Part shown: piece after piece, positions 41,171 through 58,897 of the stretch
Numbering within the stretch: the stretch's first letter is position 1
Layout of the letters: each line of letters opens with the position of its first letter
Assembly (NCBI GenBank): GCA_029379215.1
Contig: JAQYWO010000014.1
Location: 416-64,415 of the forward strand
Source: Rhizonema sp. PD37
Lineage (GTDB): Bacteria > Cyanobacteriota > Cyanobacteriia > Cyanobacteriales > Nostocaceae
Direction of reading: 5' to 3'
DNA length: 64,000 nt
The notes under the pieces: model-generated
What the model was told of the DNA's origin: nothing
What the model saw: the letters and a program-made list of their open reading frames with translations, nothing else
Databases searched by the model: none
Program-made: the position numbers and the translations under genes

Positions 41171-42325
41171 CTAGTTCAATCCAGAACTGTACTGTTTATT
41201 GAGTTTAATTCCAGGGGCATAACTGACTGCCTCAATACGTTTGAGCTTTTTGTGCAACTGCTTATATCGTGCTGTTGCTCCTTGTTTTGCGTAGAGAGTC
41301 GCGGCCTCCCGATCATCTTTAATTGCTCCTTGTTTGTCTCTTAACTCGCAGCGAGCAATAGCGCGAATCATGTAGGCATCAGCCAAGTTAGGAGCGAGCT
41401 CAATAACGTGTGTATAATCTTCGATTGCTGCCTTATAATCTTTTAGAAAATAGTGGGCATCAGCAAGTCCTTTGTATGCATCAGTATAGTTTCGATCAAT
41501 TTTAATAGCTTGAGTGTAGTCTTTAACTGCTTTTAGATATTCGCTATTTACACTTTTTTTCTTTCCCTGATTAAAGAAGCTTTTTGCTTGATTTTTTTGA
41601 GAGTTCCTTTTTTCAATTTTTTGCTCTCCCTGATTAAAGGTGCTTTCTGCTTTGTGTTTTTGAGCAAAGTTATTAAATCCTAAAACTCCAGCAACAACTA
41701 AAACACTAGCCGCAATAAGAACTGAGCGAGTGGATATGTTTGGAGAGCGAATAATTTTCTGAAAGAATTGGTTATAAATGAAACTGTTAATAGGTGTAAA
41801 AATTGCAGCTTGTTTTGCTATAGTAAACTGTGTCTGCTTTTGCTCTTGTTCCAATTTCTCAATTTCTTCTCTAATGCCTTGAGCAATATCTACAAATGCT
41901 AGATTGTGGGTTATCCAAACTCTTCTGTTATCTACAGGTTCGCCATTGCTAGGCAAAGGTTTTAAGTCTCTAAACGGTGTAGCCTCCCAGTTATCAATTT
42001 GGCGGAGTTTAACAGGGATAACAAGGGATTTTTCACGATCGTGCAGTTTCATAGCCTGCTCTCCAATCTTCCAGCCATCAACCGAATTCATAAAATCTTT
42101 ACTAACTAGCAGAACAATTACGCGAGATGTCTTCAGGTGTCGGTAATTTTCCTGCTTCCAGTTACTTCCCGCAACCGTTTGACATTTATACCAGTTGATC
42201 CTCAATCCATTATTTCGTTTCAAATTGAAGAGTTGTGCGTCTAAATTTGCACGCATGTTTTCGTCTTTTTGGGAGTAGAAAAAGGAAATAGTAATAACTC
42301 TGCTAAATATCGGAAAGACAGACAT
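41171..42325 (-). CDS. TIR domain - TM helix - TPR repeat protein
   Basis: N-terminal TIR_2-like block (ISFFYSQKDE...VIVLLVSKDFMNSVDGWKIGEQA...VIPV). Hydrophobic SVLIAASVLVVAGVLGF. C-terminal TPR units (YTQAIKIDRNYTDAYKGLADAHYFLKDYKAAIEDYTHVIEL...). Confidence 0.75.
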   Translation of the reverse strand: MSVFPIFSRVITISFFYSQKDENMRANLDAQLFNLKRNNGLRINWYKCQTVAGSNWKQENYRHLKTSRVIVLLVSKDFMNSVDGWKIGEQAMKLHDREKSLVIPVKLRQIDNWEATPFRDLKPLPSNGEPVDNRRVWITHNLAFVDIAQGIREEIEKLEQEQKQTQFTIAKQAAIFTPINSFIYNQFFQKIIRSPNISTRSVLIAASVLVVAGVLGFNNFAQKHKAESTFNQGEQKIEKRNSQKNQAKSFFNQGKKKSVNSEYLKAVKDYTQAIKIDRNYTDAYKGLADAHYFLKDYKAAIEDYTHVIELAPNLADAYMIRAIARCELRDKQGAIKDDREAATLYAKQGATARYKQLHKKLKRIEAVSYAPGIKLNKQYSSGLN

Positions 42326-42400: not shown

Positions 42401-43612
42401 TTAAGGTAATTCGCCACATAGTTTTCCTATTTCTTCGGCAAATTCTTCAGCAATGGTAACAAATGCTTCATTCTGACTTTTCCAATATCTACTAGTTACA
42501 AACTTACCATTCTTAGGTAAAGGCTGGAGATCGCCAAGCTCGAACTTACCAGGCTTAACGGTTTGCCAACCTGCAACTGAACTTAGAAGTACAGGAATCA
42601 CGAGAGTCCCTTCTTCTTCTCGTCTTTCCATTGCTCGCTTAGCCTCATAGTCAAGGTGGTAATCCGAAGAAAGAAAATGCCGACTAATAAGTAAGAGAAT
42701 TATAGAAGCTGAGTTCAAATGCTGAGTAATCTCTACCTTCTTATGTTTCCCTGGTGCAATTTTACTTTCATCCCAAATTTTTATATTACCTTGCGACTCC
42801 AAAAAGCTAAAAGATATTTGTAGATCCTTTCGGAGTTTTTCATCTTTTGGACAGTAAGATAAGAAAACTTCCATATTCTCTATATTTGCTTGTTTCGATT
42901 TGTGAAATGTTAGTAAATCTTGTTGGAGCTTGTAATTTACTAGAGTGGAAGTTTCCGGCTTAGTAGATTTTGGGGTTTGAGGTTCAACGCCAACAGCAGA
43001 AAATAGAGCAGTTGTGTTTAAACCTTCATTGTGCAACTGGCTTTTTGTGAACAGTTTAGGAGTCAAATACTCTGGAATACGTGAGACGCGGATAAGTTGA
43101 CGACCTAATTCGTAGGCAGATTCAACAGAATTTCTATCCCCTAAAGCATCGTAAAAACCAACGGCAAATTCAATTGCCGCCTGATCACCTATTTCTTTGC
43201 TCATGCCGATGACGTAATCAATATGTTGCGCGATCGCCTGAGCTTGAATCTCCGAATGACAAGCATTGAGTAATACACATTTAACATACTCCGCAAAATA
43301 CTTAAACAATCCAGCTAGCGCCTCTGCATCTACTAACTTTTCTTGCCCTGTTTCATCCTCAAATACTAAGCCTTTTTCCTGAGCGCCATGTCCTGAAAAA
43401 TGGACAATCTGTGGCTGGAAGTACATGATTTCTCGATGAATATCTCTATAGCGCACTGCTACTGCCAATTCAATTTGAAATTGGTCGCGTCCTTTTGATT
43501 GTCTTAATCCATTCTTTATTTCGCGTAACTCTTCGTCTATACGCAGTCTGCTTGTACCTTTCGGATTGGCTGCCAAAATTAAGATTTTGTTGACTGAGGT
43601 TCCACTATTCAT
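42401..43612 (-). CDS. caspase-like (minimal CHAT) protease domain fused to a TIR domain
   Basis: N-terminal ILILAANP...IVHFSGHG...CVLLNACHS (His/Cys dyad in caspase/CHAT spacing). C-terminal TIR_2-like VFLSYCPKDE...IILLLISRHFLSSDYHLDYEAKRA...VIPVLL. Confidence 0.75.
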   Translation of the reverse strand: MNSGTSVNKILILAANPKGTSRLRIDEELREIKNGLRQSKGRDQFQIELAVAVRYRDIHREIMYFQPQIVHFSGHGAQEKGLVFEDETGQEKLVDAEALAGLFKYFAEYVKCVLLNACHSEIQAQAIAQHIDYVIGMSKEIGDQAAIEFAVGFYDALGDRNSVESAYELGRQLIRVSRIPEYLTPKLFTKSQLHNEGLNTTALFSAVGVEPQTPKSTKPETSTLVNYKLQQDLLTFHKSKQANIENMEVFLSYCPKDEKLRKDLQISFSFLESQGNIKIWDESKIAPGKHKKVEITQHLNSASIILLLISRHFLSSDYHLDYEAKRAMERREEEGTLVIPVLLSSVAGWQTVKPGKFELGDLQPLPKNGKFVTSRYWKSQNEAFVTIAEEFAEEIGKLCGELP

Positions 43613-45686: not shown

Positions 45687-47861
45687 TCACAACCAAGTTC
45701 TCGGACGCACGCGGTTGGCTTCATCAACCAGGTGGATCTTTTCATCTCCAGTTGAGAGGTGTGCCATATCCCGCAGGGCTTTTTCCAACCCTTTTCTAAG
45801 ATACAATTCCTCCAAAGGTTGTCCTAGAATTGAAATCGCGGAAGTAGAGGAGAGTGCTTGAGAAGTGACAAGATGTAAGGCTGTCTCCAAAACCTGTTTC
45901 GTTAATTGATGGCGATCCATACCTTTGAGAGTCAGCGCTTCAATTGCTGTGGAAGCTTCTTTGAGTTCTTGTGCACCAGGTGCGGAACTGGAACGATCAA
46001 TAAGTGTCCGAGCAATTTCCACACGCGATCGCGTATACAAATTGGAAGTTTGCGGTACGCGTTCCAATGCTGCCACTGCATTGTTTCTATCTCCTGTGGC
46101 GCATAAGCAACGAGCTAAACCGAAAGTAGCTGAGGTATAACTGGGATCGGTACGAGACACCAAGTCGTACATCTGAATTGCTAGTGGCAAATGATCTGCT
46201 GCTTCTGCTGCTAAAGCAAGTGCTAGTTTAGGTGTTAGTTCTCCAGGTAAATCAAAGTAAACTTGGTCAAAAGCTGCTTGAGCCTCTTGAGCTTTACCGT
46301 GTGCCATCAAACTTCGTCCCCGATACCACAGCACTCGCCAATCCCAAGGGTCTTTTTGCTCCACTTGTGCCAAAAGCTGTTCCGCCTCATCATAAATACC
46401 AACTTCAATCAAGCTGTTTGCCAAACGCAGCAATGCTTCCTTAGAATCTGGAAAGTGCAGGACAACTTGTCTCAAACTGGTTACTCGCTTCACAGAATCG
46501 GCAATGGCACTCGCATTGAGTATCGCGTTAAAACCTGGTTCTGTGGTATCCAACATCGGCATCGGCAACTGGTGATAATCGGCTTTGATGGCACTCAAAT
46601 CACCACTATTGATCAGTGCCAGCATATCTCCACCAAAAAGGTTACTGGTAGCTGGACGTGGAGTCTTGGTTTCCCTAGCAACAATCTCCCGCAGCACTCC
46701 AAGTAACTGATCTGCCATTTCATCAGCAGACTGGAAGCGCTCGTCAGGATTTTCTGCTGTGGATTTTAGTAAAAAACGATACAAGGACTCTTGCTCGGCA
46801 AACAGTGGTTCTTCTTGAGGACTGGGCAGCTTGTGTAAATGTTCTTTAGTAAAGCTGCTGATGTTAGTGAGCAAAACAGCAAGAGTCCTGCCAATGGTGA
46901 ATAAATCTGAGACTACCGTTGGTCCTTCACTCGCTTCAGGAGCGCTGTAGCCGACTGTACCATAAATGTCCCCGTGCAGATCGTCTATGCGTCGCACGCC
47001 GCCCAAGTCGATTAATTTTACATCGTTGTCTTCAAGCATCACGTTATCCGGCTTGAAGTCACAATATACCAAACCTAAGGAATGCAAGTAAGCAAAAGCA
47101 CTTAAAATCCGGTGAATGTAAGCGATCGCCTCCGTGACTGGCAATGGACCTCGCTGTTTGCGAATGTCCCTCAACGTTTTGCCACCCACATACTCCATAA
47201 CGATGAAGCCTTCGCTACCGTAGTTAACAAAGTTATAAATGCCGACAATATTGGCATGTTTCACCGCAGCTAAAAATTGACGTTCTGCCACTGCCACTGC
47301 TGCACTTGCCGCATCTTCAGTATTTAGCAGACCTTTGAGTACGACGTAACGAGACAGCGTTTTATCAAAGCCCAAGTAAATCCAGCCCAGTCCACCAAAG
47401 GCGATCGCACCTTTAACTTCATATTGTCCAGCCACTAAATCTCCTGGAAAGAGAGACGGTATAAAGGAATACTTGTGCCCACATTTGGGACAAAAGCCTT
47501 TCTCACGAACGAGAGGATTGTTGCAATTTGCACAGAAGCGTTTGTTGTCGGGAACCTTCGCCTCCACCATGATTGCCTTTTCTGGTTCTGTGGAAGGAAG
47601 TTCGGGCACAGAGACAAGTCCGGCCCCAAGTTGCTTGCGGGTGCTTCTCTTCGAGGTGTTGTTTGTACGACGCGAACCTTTAGAACGATTGGTTAGTGGA
47701 GATGATCCCGTACCTGTAGTAATGTTTGTGCTTTGCTTCGTTTCCATTCGCATGGAAACATCAACCAATGACGAATTGAAGTCAGCAAGTCCGCACACAT
47801 TACAATAGCCATCTTCAATGATGCCAGTACACTTATTATGCTTACAGCGATCGCCTTCCAT
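45687..47861 (-). CDS. Ser/Thr protein kinase with two N-terminal zinc ribbons and C-terminal TPR-like repeats
   Basis: CKHNKC...YCNVCG and CANCN...FCPKCG. Kinase blocks GGLGWIYLG, VVLKG, YCDFKPDNVM, DLGG, GTVGYSAPE. Helical repeats in the C-terminal half. Confidence 0.85.
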   Translation of the reverse strand: MEGDRCKHNKCTGIIEDGYCNVCGLADFNSSLVDVSMRMETKQSTNITTGTGSSPLTNRSKGSRRTNNTSKRSTRKQLGAGLVSVPELPSTEPEKAIMVEAKVPDNKRFCANCNNPLVREKGFCPKCGHKYSFIPSLFPGDLVAGQYEVKGAIAFGGLGWIYLGFDKTLSRYVVLKGLLNTEDAASAAVAVAERQFLAAVKHANIVGIYNFVNYGSEGFIVMEYVGGKTLRDIRKQRGPLPVTEAIAYIHRILSAFAYLHSLGLVYCDFKPDNVMLEDNDVKLIDLGGVRRIDDLHGDIYGTVGYSAPEASEGPTVVSDLFTIGRTLAVLLTNISSFTKEHLHKLPSPQEEPLFAEQESLYRFLLKSTAENPDERFQSADEMADQLLGVLREIVARETKTPRPATSNLFGGDMLALINSGDLSAIKADYHQLPMPMLDTTEPGFNAILNASAIADSVKRVTSLRQVVLHFPDSKEALLRLANSLIEVGIYDEAEQLLAQVEQKDPWDWRVLWYRGRSLMAHGKAQEAQAAFDQVYFDLPGELTPKLALALAAEAADHLPLAIQMYDLVSRTDPSYTSATFGLARCLCATGDRNNAVAALERVPQTSNLYTRSRVEIARTLIDRSSSAPGAQELKEASTAIEALTLKGMDRHQLTKQVLETALHLVTSQALSSTSAISILGQPLEELYLRKGLEKALRDMAHLSTGDEKIHLVDEANRVRPRTWL

Positions 47862-47880: not shown

Positions 47881-48098
47881 GTGTGTCGTGGGTTTAATGT
47901 ACATTTCTTATGTACAGAAGAAATGTACATAAGATTTGAACAGAGGCGAGCAGATTATCAAACCCGCCTGTATACAAGTTATAAATAATACTGTTTTAGC
48001 ATTCATCATTTCTAATTCATAACTCCACGCCTTTACAGACGGGTTTCACAAGACTTGAAATTGACTCACAACTTATCTGAATTAAACCCACGACACAT
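47881..48098. repeat. palindromic MITE-like element (17-bp terminal inverted repeats, nested inner inverted repeats)
   Basis: gtgtgtcgtgggtttaat (47881-98) versus attaaacccacgacaca (48081-97). Inner 13-bp perfect hairpin 47897-47909/47918-47930. aaacccgcctgta/tacagacgggttt is nested. The right arm overlaps the last codons and stop of the 405-aa gene. Confidence 0.7.
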
Positions 48099-49299
48099 TG
48101 TTCAAGCGTTTTTCGTATTGAGACACCAGATTAGCAGCTTTGTCTAAAGGAGTTGGTCGGGTGTACAAAAGCTGCTGAGCTTGATAAGCTAAATCAGCTA
48201 AAGTCGCATCTTCAACCATTCCCCGTGCCAGCGCCTTGGCTTTAAGAGCGTCGAGTCGTCCGCGCAACTCGGCTCTAATTTCTAATGGTGCTTTGTTTGC
48301 TGCATAGGCTTTTTCAGTTGCTGTAATATATTCCTTCACCTTGAGTGTCCAGTTTTCCAGACCAACTTGCACGGGATTTATCAAGCCTTCAGCAAACTTG
48401 GTTTCCAGTCTACTCAGCCAAGACGAAAGTGCAACGATATGCTCACTTGCCAAAGGAGGTTGCAGCATTGAATGGTCAACTACCTTTAAACTACTCTCTT
48501 CAAAGGCAGCTATTGCTAGGCGATGTAGTTCTACCAACTTTGATTGTAGTTGGTGTGCGCTTTGCCAATTTTCTTGCCATAGTTGCTGCTGTTTAGCAAC
48601 CTGCTCTAAAGATATTTTCACCCGCCCTATGAGGGGTTGAATTTCACGAGTGAAATCTACACTTACTCCCAACGGATCGCTCTCAATCCTCTGACGCCAG
48701 AAAGTCATCTTTTGACTGGCGTCGGCAAGTTCTGTTAAGGAATCGACACCCAGCGAATCAGCCCATTTTTGCAACGTCTGAATCTCGGTTTGTGCGTTAT
48801 CCAGCATGGGTTCCAAGTGCAACCAAGCTTCATCAACAGCCAAAACGGCTTCCTTGGCGATATTAAAGGCGAGAGTCATTAGCACGAGTAACTCTTGAGG
48901 AGCGATCGCATCTGTAATCTCTGCCGCACTCAAAAGTCCTCTTTCTGCTAAGGAAATTTGTGTGGCAGCGAACTGAATGGATCGTTTTGTGAGAATTCGT
49001 TCAATTTCTTGCAGTTTCTGTGGCGATACCAAAAACCGTGGTATGGATAAGCGCAGTTGAGTTGCCTTATCGACTGTCTGCACAAGTAAGTCGAAATACC
49101 CGAACAAATCGTTCATTGCCTCTAATGCTGGACGCAATCGCGCTTGAGTAACTCCCACAATTTTTGCATTGGGGAATCCAGATATACCAGTAAGCCGTTG
49201 GTAAGTTGGAAGTCCATGCAAGTCTATCAGGTTCTGACCCGCAAGATCGATTCTCTTTTTCCAATCGGCTAACAATTGGTCAATTTCTTCAAGAGTCAT
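48082..49299 (-). CDS. hypothetical all-helical protein (405 aa), first gene of the kinase/phosphatase module
   Basis: Long ORF, same strand, directly upstream of the kinase. Heptad-like Leu/Gln/Glu-rich sequence. No enzymatic motif. Confidence 0.6.
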   Translation of the reverse strand: MTLEEIDQLLADWKKRIDLAGQNLIDLHGLPTYQRLTGISGFPNAKIVGVTQARLRPALEAMNDLFGYFDLLVQTVDKATQLRLSIPRFLVSPQKLQEIERILTKRSIQFAATQISLAERGLLSAAEITDAIAPQELLVLMTLAFNIAKEAVLAVDEAWLHLEPMLDNAQTEIQTLQKWADSLGVDSLTELADASQKMTFWRQRIESDPLGVSVDFTREIQPLIGRVKISLEQVAKQQQLWQENWQSAHQLQSKLVELHRLAIAAFEESSLKVVDHSMLQPPLASEHIVALSSWLSRLETKFAEGLINPVQVGLENWTLKVKEYITATEKAYAANKAPLEIRAELRGRLDALKAKALARGMVEDATLADLAYQAQQLLYTRPTPLDKAANLVSQYEKRLNNVSWV

Positions 49300-49372
49300 G
49301 AGTTAGTTGTTAGATGTTGGGTATTGGGTGTTGGTTGTCAAAAATTACTAATAACCACTTCCTATCTTTACA

Positions 49373-49440
49373 ATGACTCAATAATGCCGCCACCCAAAAC
49401 TCTTTCCTCATCGTACCAGACTGCCGCTAGACCTAGTTCA
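49373..49440 (-). pseudogene. mnmA 3'-end remnant, copy A (divergent)
   Basis: 31 nt (atgactcaataatgccgccacccaaaactct) are identical to 55501-55531. Encodes ..[19 protein letters not shown], compared with mnmA ..[18 protein letters not shown]. Confidence 0.75.
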
Positions 49441-49511: not shown

Positions 49512-49781
49512 ATGAAAATTATCCGGTGGGATCTCAAGAAGAATGAAAAGCTTCGGTCTGAACGAGGGGTGTCTTTTGAAGCGGTTCTTGCGGCGTTGGA
49601 AACAGGAAACCTTCTTGATGATTACATTCACCCGAATCAAGGCAAGTATCCAAATCAACGTTTACTGGTCGTCCAGATCGAAGGGTATGCGTATCTTATC
49701 CCGTACGTTGAAACCGAGTCAGAACTTTTCTTGAAGACTATTATTCCATCTCGCAAGGCAACCAAGCAGTACCTACTTTAG
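49512..49781 (+). CDS. BrnT-like toxin (DUF497-type)
   Basis: IIRWDLKKNEKLRSERGVSFE... and C-terminal LKTIIPSRKATKQY fit the BrnT pattern. A cognate antitoxin gene follows after 2 nt. Confidence 0.65.
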   Translation: MKIIRWDLKKNEKLRSERGVSFEAVLAALETGNLLDDYIHPNQGKYPNQRLLVVQIEGYAYLIPYVETESELFLKTIIPSRKATKQYLL

Positions 49782-49783
49782 AG

Positions 49784-50065
49784 GTGATGAGCATGAGTAA
49801 ACTCGATGATGAAGAGAAGGAAATACTTGAGTCCTTTGATTCGGGGGAATGGGAATCAGTGGGCGATCCAAACCGTCTTGCCCAGCTTCAAAGCTATGCC
49901 AACGGCACTATTGCCAAAGATAAGCGAATTACGTTACGGCTTTCGTCGATGGATTTCGATGCAATTCAAGCAAAAGCAATCGTTGAGGGAATTCCATATC
50001 AGACCTTTATCTCAGGCATTTTGCACAAGTACATAACCGGAAGACTCATCGAACGACGAGAGTAA
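49784..50065 (+). CDS. BrnA-like antitoxin (CopG/RHH-type C-terminus)
   Basis: EEKEILESFDSGEW.S ... KRITLRLSSMDFDAIQAKAIVEGIPYQTFISGILHKYITG. Confidence 0.7.
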   Translation: MMSMSKLDDEEKEILESFDSGEWESVGDPNRLAQLQSYANGTIAKDKRITLRLSSMDFDAIQAKAIVEGIPYQTFISGILHKYITGRLIERRE

Positions 50066-50233: not shown

Positions 50234-50423
50234 CTAACTCAATTGCTCAATGATGCCGCTACCTAAGACTCTGTCCCCATCGTACCAGACTGCGGCTTGT
50301 CCGGGAGTGATGCTGAACTGAGGTTCGTCAAACACGATACGGACGCGAGAGTTTTCTAAGAGGAACACCGTAACTGGTGCGGGATTTGAACGATAGCGGA
50401 TTTGCGCTTCGGCACGGATGGGG
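50234..50423 (-). pseudogene. mnmA 3'-end remnant, copy B
   Basis: 50268-50423 is identical, by my base-by-base reading, to 55527-55682 (156 nt). The tail differs (..[11 protein letters not shown]). The listed 76-aa ORF is this fragment plus junk N-terminal codons. Confidence 0.9.
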
Positions 50424-50635: not shown

Positions 50636-53600
50636 TCAAATATAACCCTTTGATGAAACAACTCGATTTTCTGCATCAAGCATGAAATCATAAGTGTTTA
50701 AAAAATCAGACTGCCACTTTTCAGGCTTTTGGCAAATTGCTAGTGAAAATCCTGCTAAATCAAACCATTGAATATCATCCCCAATTTCTACTGGTACTAC
50801 TCTCCAATTTTTACTTGGAGCCTTACTGAAATCTCTAAGCAGATTGACGTCAATTCGATTAGGAGGTTTAGGAGTTGGTAAATGTCGTTCAACACTAGAA
50901 AATGATTGATCTACCCAATTTCTGATATTGACTGCATTAAGATATTCATTTTGTTCCGGTTCTCTTTCGCTAATGTAGTAATAGTAAGTCTGCGCTAATT
51001 CTTCAGCTTGTTTACGAGTTGTTACATCTTCTACTTTAGCAAGCAAGTATGCGGCTACTGGATCTAAAGTTCCCCATACAATAAGTTCTTTCATCCAGAA
51101 AACAATCCAAGGTAGCCCAGTTTGTGACCAGTTTTCAAGGGATGATTCAACTAACTCACCACCAAAAGCTTCATCTATAGCTAGTGCAATAACACTTCCT
51201 AAGCCCCAGTTGAATCTATATCCAAAATTTTGACTAATATATGAATGCCAATTTGAAATTTGAGTCGGTTTCGGTTTTTTAATTGCTTTAGTAGGGTCAA
51301 GCCACCAGCGTAATATTTCATTCCAAGTAACCTTTCCTGATGGGTCGATTAGTTTAAACTTCGATAAACTGGTTAAAATACTAACTATATTTTGAATATA
51401 ATTAAAGCGTTCTTCTACTGTCCAAATAGCATAATCTCCACCCACTGCTAATTGTTCTTTAAGTCGAGAATAGAGAGTTAAAAGCTGATTTCCATCACGT
51501 GGTGGTAAACTAGTGCGATACAAGCGCCGACGCTGTGACAAATCTTTATAAATTTCTGTTTTCAGTGCCCTACCTCGCCTGATAAATAAATTTTCTAATC
51601 TTTCTTGTTCGCGGCTAGCGTAATGAGCAAAGCTTCGTTGCCAAATTTTTTGCAGTTGCTCCTCCAATTCATTAGGGCTTAAATCATTAGCTGCTAGCTG
51701 TTCAATTTCAACAATTGCAGACAGTAAAATGCTATCCAGCGAATCTAAAGTTTCAATAGCTGATAATTCTGTATCAGAGAGATTATTGCCAGAGTCAAGC
51801 GGTGCAGTTTTTTCCAGCCATGTAAAAAATTTTTCTTGTCTATTAGAACTGGAAATTAGCTGCCATTGTTCTTCCAAACGTAGCAGTAATTCTGCTATAG
51901 GACTTAGAGGATTTGCATTTGGGTTAATTGCTTGTGTTTGAGCCTCTAATTCTTCTATCAAAGATAAGTATCTTTTACGTGCTTCTTTGTCACTCCAATC
52001 TGTCGATGCATTACTAAGTAATACTAAACTACGTCCTTCTGTGCCAAATCCAGGTCTTCCAGAACGACCAACTAAATTACCAAATTCACGAATATTTAGT
52101 TCTCCCGTACCACGTCTTAAACTTGGAATTAATACTGTTTCAAAAGGAAGATTAACCCCTTCGGAAAGAGTTGACGTTGCTAAAACTAAATGTACAATTT
52201 TTTCATCTATGACATCGATAAGTAATCGAGCCATCAAACCTGGCATTTTTCCATGATGTACTATGATTCCTTTCTCTAACAGCTTATACTCGCGAGATTT
52301 AATACCAAAATAATCTTCACATGAACGTAAACACTTTTGCCAAATCTCAAGTTTTTCTGGCTCTACAGGTTCTTTAAAAAATGAAGGTATTTCTATTTGC
52401 GACCAAATTGTCAAAAAATTCAGAAAGTCTTCAGCATAACCGCCAGGGTGCTGTGTGACTGAAATAAGAACGGCACGTCTTTGTCCTTTTTCATCTGGTG
52501 CAGCTAAGTGCATAGCTGCCCAGAAAAGATAAGGGCGTAACCTCTTTTCAACTCCTTCTTTTTTACCTTTTGGCACAGGAGGATATGTCGGAAAAGGATT
52601 TGGAATAAAAGGTGTGTCAGCTTGACCACCTTCTTGAAATTCTAATCTTCTACCATCAAGTAAGTCATAGCGTATTTCAAATCCTTTTCCTGGCAGGCAT
52701 TCAAGACGACCTATTAATTGACGCGTACTTCTGTAATTTGTCTTTGCTGGGCTAGCGTTAGTTAAATTTTCTATCCAGCTTGCTAAAGCACCTTCTGTTT
52801 CTGATGCAACAGCGGATAGTGCAATAATTCGGCTATTATTTTGTTCTATATAAGTAAACAGTCTTGCACTTAATGACTCTAAGCGTAAGGATCTATTCTC
52901 AGCTTTTTGCAAAGAATCTTTATTACCATCAAATTGAACTGCATGGGCTTCATCAAGTACAATAAGCGATACTCTACGGATAAATAGAGACCCTAAAAAT
53001 TTCATCAAAGCTTCTGCTTTTTCATAAGTGCAAATTAAAACTGTTGGCTGTTCTGATGTCAGCCATACATCTGTTGGACCCCAGTCAGTACCTCCATATA
53101 AACCTGTAACTATGACATTGTTATTAGTAGAGCGCTTTAAAACACGAGACAAATTTGATTCAACTTCTGTAGCAAGCGCTCTGCTTGGCACTAAGTAAAT
53201 TACTAAAGGAGCCGAGTTGCTTAATTCGTTATAATTTGTTGTTTCAAAGAACAAACTTTGCAGAATAGCAATTTCAGCTATTGTGGTTTTTCCTGAACCT
53301 GTAGGGGTACAAAGAGCAAATGATTCTGCTGTTGATAGTCGTTCAATTCCACAAATTTGAGAACGCCATGCTAAAGTTTTACACTTTTGATAACTTTGAC
53401 GTAAATAACGCTCCAAGAAAGTTTTACCACTTTGGGTAATCATCTGAGAAAGTGCTTCTAAATGATATCGTAGAGAAGTTTCTATATATACATAAGCAAC
53501 TTCAGCACATAACTTACCTAAAAGCCAAGAATAAGTGTCATGTCCATGAAGAAGCACCTTAGCAATAGCAGAAAGCTTTTCAATAGCTTTTTCTAATCTT

Positions 53601-55228
53601 GGTTCATTTCCCCAGCGCATTTTTGCACATAAAATTCCTAAAGAACTAGCAGTTTCTTTAACAATCAACTTGTTAAATCTGTCAGCAGTTGTATCAGTCT
53701 CATCCCAAAGAAGACTTGTTTCTGTTTGGAAATTTGATGATGTTGCAGTTGCCCAATATTCTGTCAGCTGTTGCAATAAACTGGGAAAATCAGCTTTTAG
53801 CAAAGAACGTAGAATTTCTGACTCTATTCCCTCACTTATATCTTCATTGAGTAAACCTGCAGCCATAGCAGGATAACCAGCAAGTTCATACACAGCTGCT
53901 GCAAGTAAACGAATTGGTAAAATATCCGGGTTTAGTTGGGGATGAGATAGCCATTCAAATAACTCACCAGCCCGTAGCATTCCATTACGCCAGTTAATAT
54001 CTCCAGTTTCTCGCTGGATAAATGCAGCCTCAATAAGGCGCATAGCATCATTTAATCTTTCACCTGCTTCATCTTCTCGCCACCCAGTTAATCCCTTTCC
54101 TCCTGCGCGAAGTCTGGTATGTTGGCTATAAAGTTTTGCAATTGCTGGTGTTAGTCTGCTACCTGCCAGACTCTTTTGTAGTTCTTTCGCTAAAGCAATG
54201 ACTTCGTTACTTGGTTGAGTCATCTCATTTTGCAGAACTTCACCCTCTACTATGACATCAGAGTTTGCTTTTGTAACCTCTGAATCATCTGGTTGTTGAA
54301 CTTTATGAGTATAAATATTTACTGTATGTGTTACAGTTACTGGCTGACTATAGACACTTGTAACCAGATTCTCAACTTCATGAAGGTGAATTTCAACTGC
54401 TTCGAGTCTTCTTTCTGCTGTATATTGTTCGTGTGGTTTTTCGAGAGGTATCCAGGTGGAATTTCTGATAGGATGTTCACCACAAATATAACTAATTAAA
54501 TCGCAGCGTTCATAATTTCTATCAACTTTTTTTTCTAGCCATAAAACTCTTAGAGAATCAACCCATTCAGATGAAAAAGGATCATCGTAATCACCCAAAA
54601 TCTCAATTATTTGTGGGATATCAACAGGCTTTATATGTGGTTCACTTGCCTTTTTATGTGCTTCAGCTATCATTTTGGTGTAATGATTAGTTGTGCATTT
54701 AGCTTCACAAACTAGAGAAGCAATAATTACTCCTTCGCTGTTACGTAGAAAAGCAAGACAATCATCGCCTGTACGTCCAGGTCGCTTTTTTGCAATCTCT
54801 TCAGTTTGATTTAGAAATTCTAAATGCTGAAACTCAACTAGATGAAATCGAAAAAGAAAAGCAGGAATTTCCCAATCATCCCGCCCAAAAGGAGCAAAAT
54901 TTTCAGCAATGATTCCTGAAAATATCTCTCCAAAATAACCCTGAAGGGATATAATATTAAGACGCTCAGGATAGCCATAGCTTGGATCGTTGTCTGAAAA
55001 ATCCCCAAATGGAGTGAGAGAATTTCCTGCTAATTTATGAAGACGATATCGAGCATCTTTATGGGCTTTTTGAACAATTAATATTAATTCATTGATAATT
55101 ATATTTCGTTGGCTTTTATCTTCTCTGAGCAGACGATGTGTGTACCGCTTATCTTCAGATTCACTAACTGAGTTAGATAACCACTTTGATATTCCGTTAA
55201 ACCTAGTGATTTTTTGTCTTTCTTCCAT
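50636..55228 (-). CDS. HamA/DUF1837-like PD-(D/E)xK domain fused to a DEAH-box SF2 helicase (single-polypeptide Hachiman-like candidate), 1530 aa
   Basis: N-terminal LQGYFGEIFSG..., GRTGDDCLAF..., LVCEAKC (nuclease-fold D...ExK). Helicase motif I CTPTGSGKT, II LIVLDEAHAV, V ATSTLSEGVNLP, VI GRSGRPG. Large helical linker and about 430-aa C-terminal region. The gene is visibly more AT-rich than its neighbours. Confidence 0.6.
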   Translation of the reverse strand: MEERQKITRFNGISKWLSNSVSESEDKRYTHRLLREDKSQRNIIINELILIVQKAHKDARYRLHKLAGNSLTPFGDFSDNDPSYGYPERLNIISLQGYFGEIFSGIIAENFAPFGRDDWEIPAFLFRFHLVEFQHLEFLNQTEEIAKKRPGRTGDDCLAFLRNSEGVIIASLVCEAKCTTNHYTKMIAEAHKKASEPHIKPVDIPQIIEILGDYDDPFSSEWVDSLRVLWLEKKVDRNYERCDLISYICGEHPIRNSTWIPLEKPHEQYTAERRLEAVEIHLHEVENLVTSVYSQPVTVTHTVNIYTHKVQQPDDSEVTKANSDVIVEGEVLQNEMTQPSNEVIALAKELQKSLAGSRLTPAIAKLYSQHTRLRAGGKGLTGWREDEAGERLNDAMRLIEAAFIQRETGDINWRNGMLRAGELFEWLSHPQLNPDILPIRLLAAAVYELAGYPAMAAGLLNEDISEGIESEILRSLLKADFPSLLQQLTEYWATATSSNFQTETSLLWDETDTTADRFNKLIVKETASSLGILCAKMRWGNEPRLEKAIEKLSAIAKVLLHGHDTYSWLLGKLCAEVAYVYIETSLRYHLEALSQMITQSGKTFLERYLRQSYQKCKTLAWRSQICGIERLSTAESFALCTPTGSGKTTIAEIAILQSLFFETTNYNELSNSAPLVIYLVPSRALATEVESNLSRVLKRSTNNNVIVTGLYGGTDWGPTDVWLTSEQPTVLICTYEKAEALMKFLGSLFIRRVSLIVLDEAHAVQFDGNKDSLQKAENRSLRLESLSARLFTYIEQNNSRIIALSAVASETEGALASWIENLTNASPAKTNYRSTRQLIGRLECLPGKGFEIRYDLLDGRRLEFQEGGQADTPFIPNPFPTYPPVPKGKKEGVEKRLRPYLFWAAMHLAAPDEKGQRRAVLISVTQHPGGYAEDFLNFLTIWSQIEIPSFFKEPVEPEKLEIWQKCLRSCEDYFGIKSREYKLLEKGIIVHHGKMPGLMARLLIDVIDEKIVHLVLATSTLSEGVNLPFETVLIPSLRRGTGELNIREFGNLVGRSGRPGFGTEGRSLVLLSNASTDWSDKEARKRYLSLIEELEAQTQAINPNANPLSPIAELLLRLEEQWQLISSSNRQEKFFTWLEKTAPLDSGNNLSDTELSAIETLDSLDSILLSAIVEIEQLAANDLSPNELEEQLQKIWQRSFAHYASREQERLENLFIRRGRALKTEIYKDLSQRRRLYRTSLPPRDGNQLLTLYSRLKEQLAVGGDYAIWTVEERFNYIQNIVSILTSLSKFKLIDPSGKVTWNEILRWWLDPTKAIKKPKPTQISNWHSYISQNFGYRFNWGLGSVIALAIDEAFGGELVESSLENWSQTGLPWIVFWMKELIVWGTLDPVAAYLLAKVEDVTTRKQAEELAQTYYYYISEREPEQNEYLNAVNIRNWVDQSFSSVERHLPTPKPPNRIDVNLLRDFSKAPSKNWRVVPVEIGDDIQWFDLAGFSLAICQKPEKWQSDFLNTYDFMLDAENRVVSSKGYI

Positions 55229-55375: not shown

Positions 55376-55411
55376 CAACCGCCTTTAATATATGTACATT
55401 AAAGGCGGTTG
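55376..55411 (-). terminator. hairpin downstream of mnmA (candidate terminator)
   Basis: CAACCGCCTTTAAT/ATTAAAGGCGGTTG, a 14-bp perfect stem. On the minus strand it is followed by ACTATTTTC, a weak T tract. Confidence 0.5.
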
Positions 55412-55498: not shown

Positions 55499-56566
55499 TT
55501 ATGACTCAATAATGCCGCCACCCAAAACTCTGTCCCCATCGTACCAGACTGCGGCTTGTCCGGGAGTGATGCTGAACTGAGGTTCGTCAAACACGATACG
55601 GACGCGAGAGTTTTCTAAGAGGAACACCGTAACTGGTGCGGGATTTGAACGATAGCGGATTTGCGCTTCGGCACGGATGGGGGTTGATGGTTCGGCAATT
55701 GACACCCAGTTGACTTGTGCTACAGAACATTCTGGCTGTGTTGCCAGAGTGCGATCGCCAACAATAACTCGGTTATTCACTGCATCTAAGCCGATGACAT
55801 ACAGTGGTTCTGCGGCAGCAATTCCTAACCCTTTGCGCTGTCCAATCGTGTAGTGATGGACACCATCATGTTTGCCGAGGATTTTCCCCCCAGTGTCAAC
55901 AATATCCCCTTGCTTGGGGGCAAGATATTTATCAAGAAACGCTTTCATAGAGCCGTTTGTTTCCACCAAACACAAGTCCTGACTTTCTGGCTTATCAGCA
56001 GTTTTTAATTCGTATTCGGCAGCGATTTTACGAGTCTCTGTTTTCTGTATTTCTCCTAGTGGAAATACAGATGCCGCTAATAAATCTTGGGAAAGGTCAT
56101 AGAGGAAGTACGACTGATCTTTATTGCGATCAAAAGCCCGATGCAACTGATAACGTCCAGTCGTTGGGTCATAAATGATCCGAGCATAGTGACCTGTGGC
56201 AATTTTGTCGCATCCCAGATGTTCTTGAGCATATTGCAACATTGGACCAAATTTCACAGTCTTGTTGCACTGAGAACAAGGCAAAGGCGTAATCCCAACA
56301 CTGTAACCAGCTACGAGATAATCCACAATATTGGTTTGAAATACTTCCCGAATATCAACAACATGATGGGGAATGCCAAGCTGTTCGCAGAGATAAGCCG
56401 CATCAATCATACCCTCAGAGCAGCACTGACCTTTCCCTTTCATTAACCAAAGGGTGAGACCAATAACTTCATAGCCCTGATTGTGTAATAGAGCAGCAGC
56501 AGTGGAACTGTCAACGCCACCAGAAAGACCAACTACGACTTTGTTCATACCGTGATTGCTTGGCAA
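55499..56566 (-). CDS. mnmA: tRNA 2-thiouridine(34) synthase
   Basis: PP-loop [11 protein letters not shown]. Cys motifs ..KGQCCSE.., PCSQCN. The C-terminal barrel ends ..[18 protein letters not shown]. Confidence 0.93.
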
Positions 56567-56886: not shown

Positions 56887-57726
56887 ATGAATATTTTCTC
56901 TTCCAATCCCAGCTATTCTACCGTTAAATCGATAATTCCTCTGATATTAGGAGGATGTTTAGCTCTGATTTCCTACCCTACTCCAGTAAAAGGGCAAATC
57001 AACACAAAAGGTGTTTTGCTGGCTCAACGACCCTCTGTGTATCAAAATTTACCACCCGCCCCACCTATTCCAGGCACTGGTTTTAATGATGACTTATTAC
57101 CTGCATTGCCAACAAGTTCACCAGGTTATACCACTCCCCAAAGATTCATAGACTTCCAAGCAGCGCCTTCATATCAAAATAACCGAAATAGAGGCTACAC
57201 AGACGAACAAGCAGCACCATCATATCAAAATAACCGCAATGGGCGCTACTTGGTTTACGTAGATAGTAATAACTTCCAACGATTGCAACAAGTATATCAG
57301 ATTGAACCAGGAGCCTATATACGCAGGTTTCAAGGACGTTATATCATTCAAGCAGGAGTTTTTAACAGAGAATCCAACGCGAAGGAGCGTCTTAGGCAAC
57401 TTCGGTCTTATGGTATAAATGATGCACGGTTGGTCAACTTCTCTAACAGGCGAGAAATCAGCTACTCTCCTAGTCAAAAGGATTTTGTCCGGCATCAGTC
57501 TAAGTCTTACTATGTTGCCATTCCTGTTAAATCACAAGACTTACCCTTCATGGAAGATAAAATTAGGCGTAGTGTAGGATTTAATACAAGTGTAAGTACC
57601 AGAAATCATCCTCGAGGGTTGCACGTAGCAGTTGGACCCTTTAACCAGTACTTAGACGCAGAGGCATGGAACAATTATCTGCAAAAACAGGGATTCGCTA
57701 ATGCCAGGGTTTACTATGGAAGATAG
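56887..57726 (+). CDS. SPOR-domain-like secreted protein (two SPOR-like repeats; internal AAPSYQNNRN duplication)
   Basis: Signal/TM at the N-terminus. YLVYVDS...IIQAGVFNRESNAKERLRQLRSYG and YYVAIPV...HVAVGPFNQYLDAEAWNNYLQKQGF resemble SPOR repeats. Confidence 0.55.
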   Translation: MNIFSSNPSYSTVKSIIPLILGGCLALISYPTPVKGQINTKGVLLAQRPSVYQNLPPAPPIPGTGFNDDLLPALPTSSPGYTTPQRFIDFQAAPSYQNNRNRGYTDEQAAPSYQNNRNGRYLVYVDSNNFQRLQQVYQIEPGAYIRRFQGRYIIQAGVFNRESNAKERLRQLRSYGINDARLVNFSNRREISYSPSQKDFVRHQSKSYYVAIPVKSQDLPFMEDKIRRSVGFNTSVSTRNHPRGLHVAVGPFNQYLDAEAWNNYLQKQGFANARVYYGR

Positions 57727-57884: not shown

Positions 57885-58568
57885 CTAATTAGCCAAATCA
57901 AAAACCTGTTGAGCAGTCAAGTTGAATTGGGGAAAAGCCGGAGAGATAATTTGAGTGCTAGCAGTGAATTTAGTAACTTGATATTCACCCTCTACTAGGA
58001 CACAAACAGAGATTGTCGGCATTTTGGGATTCCCGATAAATTTCTTGCCTCCTAAGGCAGCATAGTCAACAATCCAATATTCCTCTATTTCCATTTCTTC
58101 ATAATCACGAAGTTTATCGTAGTAATCATCACGCCAGTTACTACTAACCCTTACGGGTGAGTCAGTTGCTTCAACGCGGGGAACCCGCGCAACGCACTGA
58201 CTCACTACCTCAACTATTAATTTGACAGAAGTAGCATTTTGGATAATTGATTCACCTTCCCAACGAGTTTCTGACCCGATAGTTTCTTGATTTAGAACAA
58301 TGATATCCGGTTCGTAGCCAGATTCTCTACTAGGCTTAACAATTGATTCTCTGGGGATAGTCCAAATTCCTCCTTTGCCTATTTCTCTAATAGTTATAAG
58401 TAATTTCTCAATGAGACAACCTGTCAGATTTGAATGCTTCCCTCGCGGTTTAGACATCTCAACAATCACCCCATTATGTAATTCGTATCTGAAGAGTGAA
58501 TCTTCTGAATACCATGCGATAAATTCATCAAAGGTAAATATTTTTGGCTCAAATTGTGTTTGCGTCAT
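57885..58568 (-). CDS. Uma2-family (DUF820) endonuclease carrying an in-frame small-dispersed-repeat insertion
   Basis: Family blocks YELHNGVIVEMS, PDIIVL, IVEVVS and EEYWIVD. About 19 extra codons (QCVARVPRVEATDSPVRVS) coincide with a palindromic repeat also present at about 6883-6915. Confidence 0.8.
   Translation of the reverse strand: MTQTQFEPKIFTFDEFIAWYSEDSLFRYELHNGVIVEMSKPRGKHSNLTGCLIEKLLITIREIGKGGIWTIPRESIVKPSRESGYEPDIIVLNQETIGSETRWEGESIIQNATSVKLIVEVVSQCVARVPRVEATDSPVRVSSNWRDDYYDKLRDYEEMEIEEYWIVDYAALGGKKFIGNPKMPTISVCVLVEGEYQVTKFTASTQIISPAFPQFNLTAQQVFDLAN
58152..58205. repeat. small dispersed palindromic repeat inserted in the Uma2 coding sequence
   Basis: gtgagtcagt-gcgttgcgcgggttccccgcgttgaagc-aactgactcac (read on the minus strand). 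A 33-nt core is identical to the copy at about 6883-6915. The outer stem differs but stays complementary (GCCAG/CTGGC versus GTCAGT/ACTGAC). Confidence 0.8.
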
Positions 58569-58825
58569 AGTTCAACAAGGTTGCTGTTAAGAGAATGGTA
58601 GGTTGAGAAGCCAGTGCTGTTCTCAGGAGCGGAGACGCTCCTGAGAAGACGGGTTTCCCGACTTGAGCAAAGTGGCGTTAGAGCGCAACGCGAAACCCAA
58701 CAAACGCCTCTTGAACCAGGAATCACGGTTTCACAAGCATTTCAGGCCACATGAATATAATATGAATTTTGCACAGGTACTTAGTGACAAATAATTTAGT
58801 TAATGTACAATACTTGATTTATTAG

Positions 58826-58897
58826 TGGGTGACCTAGGAGTCGAACCTAGAACCAATGGATTAAGAGTCCACTGCTCAGCCATTGAGCTTCTCACCC
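58826..58897 (-). tRNA. tRNA-Lys (anticodon CUU), with non-canonical G7:G66 and A8
   Basis: Manual fold: GGGTGAG-AA-GCTC-AATGGCT-GAGC-A-GTGGA-CTCTTAA-TCCAT-TGGTT-CTAGG-TTCGACT-CCTAG-GTCACCC-A. No encoded CCA. Confidence 0.7.

What the first reader, a model, noticed from the sequence alone, without database searches (positions are those of the whole stretch)
50636..55228. 1530-aa single-gene fusion of a HamA/DUF1837-like nuclease domain with a DEAH SF2 helicase
The first about 250 aa carry the pattern I associate with DUF1837/HamA (GE..-rich helix, G.xGDD..., then CEAKC as the ExK of a PD-(D/E)xK core). Residues about 630-1100 carry complete SF2 helicase motifs (GSGKT, DEAH, SEGVNLP, GRSGRPG). 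Canonical Hachiman encodes these as two proteins (HamA, HamB). Here they are one polypeptide with a helical linker of about 370 aa and a C-terminal region of about 430 aa that I cannot assign. It is the sole cargo of an islet bounded by mnmA-end repeats. That makes it a plausible self-contained defence gene and a good candidate for an undescribed architecture.
Basis: partly seen in the sequence, partly recalled or inferred. Interest (0 to 1): 0.7.

Follow-up and report, generated by a model that had tools for sequence, protein, structure and literature searches.

The report
Single-chain Hachiman (HamA–HamB fusion) defence gene
This 1530-residue cyanobacterial gene joins the nuclease (HamA) and the helicase (HamB) of the two-protein Hachiman anti-phage system into one polypeptide; it matters because the published model proposes that the helicase may activate the nuclease by releasing it.

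Summary
The ORF at 50636-55228 (-) is real and uninterrupted, and it is a HamA-HamB fusion.

- **HamB part.** Residues 341-1530 align end to end (50% identity) with stand-alone ~1200-aa helicases. Their model matches E. coli HamB over its full length (Foldseek E 2e-35, TM 0.75).
- **HamA part.** Residues 13-295 are 49% identical to a 293-aa protein encoded 4 nt upstream of such a helicase. Their model significantly matches only HamA and AbpA in the PDB. Pfam's HamA model does not detect them.
- **Linker.** The true linker is about 40 disordered residues.
- **Active sites.** Nuclease residues E101, D156, E175 and K177 and helicase motifs I, II and VI are invariant in all 38 fused homologues.
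- **Not an artefact.** A fused copy sits on the completely sequenced plasmid of Calothrix PCC 6303. Another fused protein recurs on 17 contigs. Linkers are 16-123 aa, all in frame. Fused and split states changed at least 9 times.
- **Mobility.** The gene is the sole cargo of a low-GC islet flanked by 178-nt mnmA 3'-end repeats. Close copies sit at unrelated loci.
- **Literature.** One paper discarded such fusions as probable stop-codon misannotation.

Verdict: a new variant of a known system. Function is inferred, not tested.

The parts
50636..55228 (-). Single ORF of 1530 codons encoding HamA domain, linker and HamB, plus the stop codon
54344..55192 (-). HamA-like PD-(D/E)xK nuclease domain (aa 13-295)
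   Evidence: It is 49% identical (E 5e-100) to the 293-aa protein encoded 4 nt upstream of the Priestia flexa helicase. The AF2 model has pLDDT 86. The only significant PDB fold matches are HamA 8vxy_A and 8vx9_A (E 2e-6 and 9e-6, TM 0.67 normalised to target) and AbpA 8zue_A. PADLOC HamA1 models hit 22 and 19 of 40 family members.
54920..54940 (-). GYFGEIF helix carrying invariant E101
54761..54778 (-). GRTGDD, carrying invariant D156 at the start of a beta strand
54695..54709 (-). CEAKC, the E175-x-K177 of the D...ExK motif, flanked by invariant C174 and C178
   Evidence: The PADLOC HamA1 model PDLC00159 aligns aa 154-213 to profile positions 116-177.
54224..54343 (-). True interdomain linker (aa 296-335), low confidence and probably disordered
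   Evidence: pLDDT is 42-59 after aa 300. Linker length ranges from 16 to 123 aa among fused homologues, always in frame.
54221..54223 (-). Met336, which aligns with the start codon of stand-alone HamB homologues and is the likely relic of the hamB ATG
   Evidence: Among aligned homologues, 49 of 52 unfused proteins have Met in this alignment column and 47 of 52 begin there. M is kept in only 23 of 38 fused proteins.
53336..54208 (-).
   Evidence: In E. coli HamAB this domain binds HamA (PMC12278908).
52004..53320 (-). RecA1 and RecA2 helicase core (aa ~637-1075). Motif I TGSGKT is at 53285-53302, motif II DEAH at 52943-52954 and motif VI GRSGRPG at 52049-52069.
50900..51997 (-). Helical region corresponding to HamB's degenerate winged helix and C-terminal alpha-helical domain (aa ~1078-1443)
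50645..50857 (-). C-terminal beta-barrel (aa ~1458-1528), OB-like as in ECOR31 HamB
   Evidence: The domain description comes from PMC12278908 and PMC13064477.
55505..55682 (.). Repeat copy 1: the last 178 nt of intact mnmA (mnmA itself is 55499-56566, minus strand)
50246..50423 (.). Repeat copy 2: a displaced mnmA 3' fragment, 98% identical to copy 1, marking the far boundary of the islet
55376..55411 (-). Terminator-like hairpin (16 pairs) downstream of mnmA and upstream of the fusion gene

Best explanation
The gene encodes a single-chain Hachiman system. It arose from an adjacent hamA-hamB pair whose genes are only 1-64 nt apart in the split relatives examined. The hamA stop codon was lost and the short spacer was read through into hamB. 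The old hamB start survives as Met336.

Shown here:
- aa 13-295 have the HamA fold. E101, D156, E175 and K177 are invariant, which gives a PD-(D/E)xK site.
- aa 336-1530 form a complete HamB: N-terminal helical bundle, RecA1, RecA2, helical region and C-terminal barrel, with intact ATPase motifs.
- The two parts are joined by about 40 residues predicted to be disordered.
- The gene is horizontally mobile.

Inferred by analogy with E. coli HamAB (Tuck et al. 2024):
1. At rest, the HamA domain docks on the helical bundle of its own HamB moiety and is held inactive on intact dsDNA.
2. Phage-induced DNA damage, or DNA ends, let single-stranded DNA enter the helicase.
3. ATP-driven ratcheting of RecA2 moves the helical bundle and un-gates the nuclease.
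4. The nuclease degrades DNA indiscriminately, and the infection aborts.

Because the nuclease is covalently tethered, activation must work by un-gating within one molecule, not by diffusion of free HamA. The active enzyme would be a tethered helicase-nuclease.
For: HamB identity:
- PADLOC HamB1 models reach 1e-63.
- The PDB sequence match to 8vx9_B extends well beyond the RecA core, unlike the other hits.
- Foldseek to HamB 8vxa_A, 8vxy_B and 8vx9_B gives E 2e-35 to 3.5e-34 and TM 0.73-0.77 over about 1280 columns. Hel308 and Pol theta reach about 0.4.

HamA identity:
- HamA and AbpA are the only significant PDB fold matches.
- PADLOC HamA1 models hit about half of the family, best E 1.7e-10.
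- Two family members carry a precomputed PF08878 hit.

Fusion of a two-gene operon:
- P. flexa has a 293-aa gene followed by a 1195-aa gene. They align to aa 13-295 and aa 341-1530.
- Plasmids of Sphingomonas and Nitrobacter carry the split form.

The fusion is real:
- The ORF is continuous in the raw DNA.
- A fused gene lies on the complete plasmid pCAL6303.01.
- The identical fused protein P0065 is found on 17 contigs, and the three loci shown come from three different samples.
- There are 38 full-length fused homologues at 35-97% identity, with in-frame linkers of 16-123 aa.

Active sites are kept: E101, D156, E175, K177, K647, T648, D759, E760 and H762 are invariant in all 38 fused proteins.

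Mobility and defence context:
- The islet has low GC and is flanked by mnmA-end repeats.
- Copies 92-97% identical lie at unrelated loci.
- Neighbours in relatives include VapBC, a HEPN protein, AbiH and integrases.
- TIR, CHAT-TIR and Uma2 genes lie nearby in the window.

The mechanism template comes from PMC12278908.
Against: - No experiment supports function; the anti-phage role and the DNase activity are inferred.
- Pfam PF08878 does not detect the N-domain.
- A profile of the N-domain family does not find HamA chains in the PDB by sequence. Sequence identity to E. coli HamA is only 11%.
- The motif here is D...CExKC, not the published D-GExK. I could not verify residue-by-residue equivalence with HamA E138/K140, because no coordinates or structural alignments were available.
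- I did not model docking of the HamA domain on the helical bundle in cis.
- The published model proposes possible HamA release. If release is strictly required, a fused protein would need another solution, such as linker proteolysis or action in trans.
Confidence: 0.8

Rival explanations
1. The fusion is an annotation or sequencing artefact, for example a missed stop codon or frameshift between two normal genes. This is what Tuck et al. 2025 assumed when they discarded HamA-HamB fusions.
For: [quoted passage not shown] Split relatives have gaps of only 1-4 nt, and in Sphingomonas the two genes are in frame. Some Nostoc entries look broken or truncated.
Against: - Translating the raw window shows no stop codon across the junction.
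- A fused CDS of 4704 nt lies on a completely sequenced reference plasmid.
- An identical fused protein is found on 17 contigs, three of them confirmed from different samples.
- There are 38 distinct fused sequences with lineage-specific in-frame linkers of 16-123 aa.
- The former hamB Met is replaced in 15 of 38 fused proteins.
Confidence: 0.03
2. It is a housekeeping Hel308/Lhr/Ski2-type repair helicase with an accessory N-terminal domain, not an immune gene.
For: NCBIfam gives partial hits to Hel308 and Lhr-type models. The RecA core resembles Brr2, Hel308 and Pol theta helicase.
Against: - All NCBIfam scores are far below their cut-offs (81 bits against 1200).
- Global fold similarity is TM 0.75 to HamB but about 0.4 to Hel308 and Pol theta.
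- The gene is absent downstream of mnmA in 80 other Nostocales genomes.
- Near-identical copies lie at unrelated loci and on a mobilizable plasmid.
- The islet has low GC.
Confidence: 0.04
3. The locus still behaves as a two-protein system. Internal initiation at Met336, or cleavage of the linker, produces free HamB and/or free HamA, so activation by release is preserved.
For: Met336 aligns with the start of stand-alone HamB proteins and is retained in this protein. The linker is predicted to be disordered and so would be accessible to proteases.
Against: Met336 is replaced in 15 of 38 fused homologues, so internal initiation at this codon cannot be general. No protease gene lies in the islet. 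No promoter-like site precedes Met336 beyond what chance would give.
Confidence: 0.1
4. The HamA domain is a catalytically dead adaptor, as in AbpA and most other HamA fusions. The protein would then act as a sensor for some other effector.
For: Tuck et al. [quoted passage not shown] Here G is replaced by C in the GExK motif.
Against: E101, D156, E175 and K177 are invariant in all 38 fused proteins and in the 48 aligned N-domain sequences, most of them stand-alone. No other effector gene lies in the islet.
Confidence: 0.05

Closest known systems
E. coli ECOR31 Hachiman HamAB (PDB 8VX9, 8VXA, 8VXY; Tuck et al. 2024, PMC12278908). Tian et al. 2025 call this type III-A; PADLOC calls it HamA1/HamB1.
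   Same: - HamB has the same domain order, including the N-terminal helical bundle and the C-terminal OB-like barrel (TM 0.74-0.77).
- HamA has the same fold.
- It has a D...ExK nuclease motif and DExH helicase motifs.
- The gene order is hamA then hamB.
   Different: - It is one polypeptide with a linker of about 40 aa, not a 1:1 heterodimer.
- Sequence identity is 11% for HamA and 17-19% for HamB.
- The HamA part escapes Pfam PF08878.
- The motif is CEAKC, not GExK.
- There are extra invariant Cys and His residues.
Split members of the same divergent clade, for example Priestia flexa JARTHC010000028.1 (293 aa plus 1195 aa), Sphingomonas sp. AAP5 plasmid p213 and Nitrobacter hamburgensis plasmid 2
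   Same: They are collinear over the full length of both parts. P. flexa is 49-50% identical; the plasmid copies are about 30-39% identical.
   Different: They have two ORFs separated by 1-4 nt. The HamA-like gene is annotated 'hypothetical protein' or 'aminotransferase'.
AbpAB of E. coli K-12 (PDB 8ZUE) and the protease-HamA (HamMAB) variants
   Same: They are also Hachiman derivatives in which HamA has been fused to something.
   Different: In those systems HamA is fused at its N-terminus to another effector (a Cap4 nuclease or a trypsin-like protease) and its own catalytic site is lost. Here HamA is fused at its C-terminus to HamB itself and keeps its catalytic residues.
Cas3 and other single-chain nuclease-helicase defence proteins, such as Hna, Upx and Mokosh type II
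   Same: A nuclease is covalently coupled to an SF1 or SF2 motor in one polypeptide. This is an analogy in how the protein works.
   Different: The nuclease folds and helicase subfamilies are unrelated, so there is no homology beyond the RecA core. The best NCBIfam Cas3 hit has E 2.8e-4, far below its cut-off.

Membership tests
Hachiman (HamAB) | HamB: a Ski2-like SF2 helicase with intact motifs I, II and VI | tested here: met
   Pfam DEAD scores 5e-21. PADLOC HamB1 models score 1e-63. The motifs are located and invariant.
Hachiman (HamAB) | HamB-specific architecture: N-terminal helical bundle, RecA1 and RecA2, degenerate winged helix and C-terminal helical region, and a C-terminal barrel | tested here: met
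   The AF2 model has pLDDT 87.7. Foldseek to 8vxa_A, 8vxy_B and 8vx9_B gives E 2e-35 to 3.5e-34 and TM 0.73-0.77 over the whole length.
Hachiman (HamAB) | HamA: a sequence match to DUF1837 / Pfam PF08878 | tested here: not met
   There is no Pfam hit for the protein or for its N-domain. Only 1 of 40 family members gives even a weak hit, at E 0.054. The PADLOC HamA1 hit for the window protein is weak (E 5e-4), but it is significant for 22 of 40 relatives.
Hachiman (HamAB) | HamA: the three-dimensional fold of HamA | tested here: met
   8vxy_A and 8vx9_A (E 2e-6 and 9e-6, probability 1.00, TM 0.67 normalised to target) and AbpA 8zue_A are the only significant matches in the PDB.
Hachiman (HamAB) | A conserved D-(G)ExK catalytic motif in HamA | tested here: inconclusive
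   D156, E175 and K177 are invariant and sit on consecutive strands of the model. However, G is replaced by C, and I could not check structural equivalence to E138/K140 residue by residue.
Hachiman (HamAB) | Two adjacent genes whose products form a non-covalent 1:1 heterodimer | tested here: not met
   There is a single ORF. This is the feature that makes it a variant. Split orthologues do meet this criterion.
Hachiman (HamAB) | Protection against phage that depends on both the nuclease and the helicase activities | not testable with these tools
   This needs phage-challenge assays.
Hel308 / Lhr-type housekeeping repair helicases | A score above the NCBIfam equivalog cut-off, and a conserved chromosomal locus | tested here: not met
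   The best score is 81 bits against a cut-off of 1200. Loci differ between close relatives, and one copy is plasmid-borne.

The most novel reading that the evidence does not exclude
Natural single-chain Hachiman proteins are fully active immune enzymes. If so, dissociation of HamA from HamB is not required for activation. The system would work by un-gating within one molecule, as a tethered and possibly processive helicase-nuclease. This solution appears to have been reached repeatedly: I count at least 9 fusion or fission events. The clade-specific invariant Cys and His residues around the ExK (C157, C174, C178, H182, C249) might form a metal site that adds a regulatory layer absent from canonical HamA.
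Probability: 0.35. Interest if true: 0.6.

Novelty: new variant of a known kind. Interest (0 to 1): 0.5.

Why it matters
1. **It bears on an open mechanistic question.** The current Hachiman model (Tuck et al. 2024) leaves open whether HamB activates HamA by releasing it or by a conformational change within the complex. A natural covalent HamA-HamB protein with intact active sites is a ready-made test. If it defends, release is dispensable.

2. **It corrects an assumption in the literature.** HamA-HamB fusions were discarded from a published phylogeny as probable misannotations. The evidence here shows that they are real and recurrent, and that they occur on mobile DNA, including a mobilizable plasmid and an insertion islet.

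3. **It points to under-detection.** This whole HamA clade numbers about 360 clusters at 50% identity. Pfam largely misses it, and its members are annotated as 'hypothetical protein', 'aminotransferase' or plain 'DEAD/DEAH box helicase'. Tools that require two genes probably under-count these Hachiman systems.

4. **It could be practical.** A self-contained single gene would be convenient for heterologous expression and structural work.

Tried and rejected
- **Pfam and NCBIfam** on the whole protein, the N-domain and the C-terminal 430 aa found no HamA/DUF1837 hit and nothing for the C-terminus. NCBIfam gave only sub-threshold helicase hits.
- **Sequence searches against the PDB.** A profile of the N-domain family (A1) against PDB sequences gave only spurious hits. 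A phmmer search with P0202, a family member carrying a precomputed PF08878 hit, gave only ubiquitin noise. Residue-level mapping onto HamA E138/K140 was therefore not possible.
- I rebuilt the alignment as A2.
- **mnmA as an integration hotspot.** I asked whether the mnmA 3' end is a general integration hotspot. None of 80 Nostocales mnmA loci has a duplicated 3' end or the same downstream genes, so I dropped the idea.
- **Taxonomy of other fused clades.** The cluster look-up returned no organism names.
- **Phage genomes.** tblastn found no match, so there is no evidence of phage carriage.
- **Promoters and terminators.** The scan gave counts at chance level. Only the hairpin after mnmA stands out.
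- **Docking in cis.** I considered modelling the full-length protein to test whether the HamA domain docks in cis.

Full report
**1. The observation**

The window holds one uninterrupted ORF of 1530 codons on the minus strand, from the ATG at 55228 to the stop at 50636-50638. It is identical to an NCBI protein of Rhizonema sp. PD37 (Nostocales) that is named only 'DEAD/DEAH box helicase'.

| Motif | Residues |
|---|---|
| GYFGEIF | 97-103 |
| GRTGDD | 151-156 |
| CEAKC | 174-178 |
| TGSGKT | 643-648 |
| DEAH | 759-762 |
| SEGVNLP | 1022-1028 |
| GRSGRPG | 1054-1060 |

**2. The helicase part is a complete HamB**

- Pfam sees only the DEAD and ResIII domains.
- PADLOC HamB1 models hit strongly: the best scores 1.2e-63, and PDLC00174 (1.5e-62) spans aa 413-1348.
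- NCBIfam Hel308 and Lhr models score far below their cut-offs, 81 bits against 1200.
- Homologues fall into two size classes. About 1500-aa proteins cover the whole query. About 1200-aa proteins cover only aa ~336-1530.
- The Priestia flexa 1195-aa helicase aligns residues 5-1195 with query residues 341-1530 at 50% identity.

An AlphaFold2 model of aa 341-1530 (pLDDT 87.7, pTM 0.88) shows an N-terminal helical bundle, two RecA domains, a long helical region and a C-terminal beta-barrel. Foldseek places E. coli HamB first (8vxa_A, 8vxy_B, 8vx9_B), with E 2e-35 to 3.5e-34 and TM 0.73-0.77 over about 1280 columns. Pol theta helicase and Hel308 follow at TM about 0.4.

This matches the domain order that Tuck et al. 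2024 describe for HamB. There, the N-terminal bundle is the HamA-binding platform. Tian et al. 2025 report that the OB-like barrel is restricted to the ECOR31-type subgroup.

**3. The N-terminal part is a divergent HamA**

By sequence:
- Pfam PF08878 does not detect it.
- A family profile does not reach the HamA chains of the PDB by sequence.
- PADLOC HamA1 models give only weak hits for this protein: E 5.8e-4 over aa 13-62 and E 0.022 over aa 154-213.

Three other lines of evidence agree that it is HamA:

(i) In P. flexa, a 293-aa gene ends 4 nt before the helicase gene. Its product is 49% identical (E 5e-100) to query residues 13-295. Hundreds of stand-alone homologues of about 290 aa exist, and two of them carry precomputed PF08878 hits.

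(ii) PADLOC HamA1 models hit 22 and 19 of 40 family members, best E 1.7e-10.

(iii) An AlphaFold2 model of aa 1-321 (pLDDT 86.4) has only three significant matches in the whole PDB. These are HamA 8vxy_A and 8vx9_A (E 2e-6 and 9e-6, TM 0.67 normalised to target, full-length alignment) and the HamA homologue AbpA 8zue_A.

E101, D156, E175 and K177 are invariant in the family. In the model they sit on a helix and on two consecutive strands, the usual PD-(D/E)xK layout. I infer, but could not verify, that they correspond to the catalytic Asp, E138 and K140 of HamA.

The local motif is CEAKC, not the published GExK. C174, C178, H182, H129 and H56 are invariant, and C157 and C249 are nearly so. This is unexplained.

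**4. The junction**

- Stand-alone HamA homologues end at about aa 295.
- Of the 52 aligned stand-alone HamB homologues, 47 start at the position of Met336 and 49 have Met in that column.
- The true linker is aa 296-335, which the model predicts with low confidence.
- In split relatives the two genes lie 1-4 nt apart, or 64 nt in the closest split relative. Loss of a stop codon is therefore enough to create the fusion.

**5. Is the fusion real?**

Tuck et al. [quoted passage not shown] For this clade that explanation fails:

- The raw DNA has no stop codon across the junction.
- A fused CDS lies on the complete, mobilizable plasmid pCAL6303.01 of Calothrix sp. PCC 6303, matching at 75.6% identity in a single tblastn piece.
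- The identical fused protein P0065 is encoded on 17 contigs, and the three loci shown come from three different samples.
- There are 38 full-length fused homologues at 35-97% identity. Their linkers are lineage-specific, 16-123 aa long and always in frame.
- In 15 of these 38, the former hamB Met has been replaced.
- On neighbour-joining trees of the helicase part, fused and split forms interleave. Fitch parsimony needs 9-11 state changes in every one of 100 bootstrap replicates.

Fusion, or fission, is therefore recurrent.

Unlike the other HamA fusions described in the literature, which have lost the catalytic motif, all 38 fused proteins keep both the nuclease residues and the ATPase residues.

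**6. Context**

*The islet.*
- The gene is the only cargo between two copies (98% identical) of the last 178 nt of mnmA, at 55505-55682 and 50246-50423.
- A third, degenerate copy lies at 49368-49433. It closes a second mini-islet that holds a BrnT/CopG-type toxin-antitoxin pair.
- The islet has GC 0.35-0.39, against 0.44-0.47 in the flanks.
- No integrase lies inside it.
- None of 80 other Nostocales mnmA loci shows such repeats.

*Mobility.* Copies 92-97% identical in other Nostoc genomes, and a 75% identical copy in Calothrix, lie at unrelated loci. No homologue was found in phage genomes.

*Neighbours.* In the window, nearby genes encode TIR, CHAT-TIR, Ser/Thr kinase and Uma2 proteins. In relatives, neighbours include VapBC, a HEPN protein, AbiH and integrases. 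These are the sort of genes found in defence islands.

**7. Mechanism**

What is shown is the domain identities, the intact active sites, the covalent linkage and the mobility. The rest is inferred by analogy with E. coli HamAB:

1. The HamA domain is held inactive on the helical bundle of its own HamB moiety.
2. Single-stranded DNA from damaged DNA or DNA ends enters the helicase.
3. ATP-driven ratcheting moves the bundle and un-gates the nuclease.
4. DNA is degraded indiscriminately, and the infection aborts.

The published model says that activation occurs 'potentially by releasing HamA'. A tethered HamA cannot diffuse away. Either un-gating in cis is sufficient, or the linker is cleaved, or HamB is also made from Met336. 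The last option cannot be general.

**8. Verdict**

The domain boundaries need correcting, and the claim of novelty needs tempering. This is a new variant (single-chain) of a known system, within a divergent HamA/HamB clade that Pfam largely misses. That clade has about 359 representative clusters at 50% identity, most of them stand-alone proteins of about 290 aa.

Interest is moderate. The architecture is not surprising in itself. It does make the release-versus-un-gating question directly testable, and it contradicts a published assumption that such fusions are artefacts.

Noticed in passing
window 49368-49433, 50246-50423 and 55505-55682: The 3' end of mnmA is present three times. Each copy ends in different final codons (..IIES*, ..IIEQLS*, ..IIESL*). 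This suggests two successive insertions, without an integrase, at the same site. None of 80 other Nostocales mnmA loci shows this.
   Followed up: partly
window 49512-49781 (+) and 49784-50065 (+): A BrnT-like toxin and CopG-type antitoxin pair is the sole cargo of the second mini-islet, which lies between mnmA-end copies 2 and 3. The BrnT Pfam score is below the curated cut-off; the CopG_antitoxin score is just above it.
   Followed up: partly
window 41171-42325 (-), 42401-43612 (-) and 45687-47861 (-): These genes encode a TIR+TPR protein, a CHAT+TIR protein and a PknG-like Ser/Thr kinase with rubredoxin and TPR domains. They lie a few kb beyond the islets (past a 405-aa ORF with no family hit) and may form a defence-island neighbourhood. 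The 405-aa ORF at 48082-49299 has no family hit at all.
   Followed up: partly
window 57885-58568 (-) and 58825-58897 (-): A Uma2-family putative endonuclease (PADLOC candidate PDC-S03, E 2e-81) lies about 260 nt from a tRNA-Lys(CTT) gene. A Uma2 gene also sits directly upstream of the fused gene in an uncultured Nostoc (L006).
   Followed up: no
window 54695-54778 (aa 151-182) and aa 249: The N-domain family has invariant C174, C178, H182, H129 and H56, and nearly invariant C157 and C249, around the ExK. Canonical HamA has GExK. These residues could form a metal-binding site. This is untested.
   Followed up: no
L088 3485-4936 (P0122); linkers of P0028 and P0041: In the closest split relative, HamA is 483 aa and carries a C-terminal DnaA_N-like (STICHEL-type, PF23007) domain. 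Fused proteins with long linkers (110-120 aa) show a sub-threshold trace of this domain within the linker.
   Followed up: partly
L093 4980-5933 (Sphingomonas sp. AAP5 plasmid p213): The HamA-like partner gene is annotated 'aminotransferase' in RefSeq on several alpha-proteobacterial plasmids. This is probably a propagated misannotation.
   Followed up: no
P0118, P0119, P0023, P0025, P0027 and P0039 (Nostoc spp.): Several Nostoc genomes carry truncated or split versions of the fused gene, for example 523 aa plus 1223 aa starting inside the HamA domain. These could be decaying alleles or secondary fissions.
   Followed up: no
window 57147-57248: A tandem 51-nt repeat (2 copies, 80% identical) lies inside the SPOR-domain protein gene at 56887-57726.
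   Followed up: no
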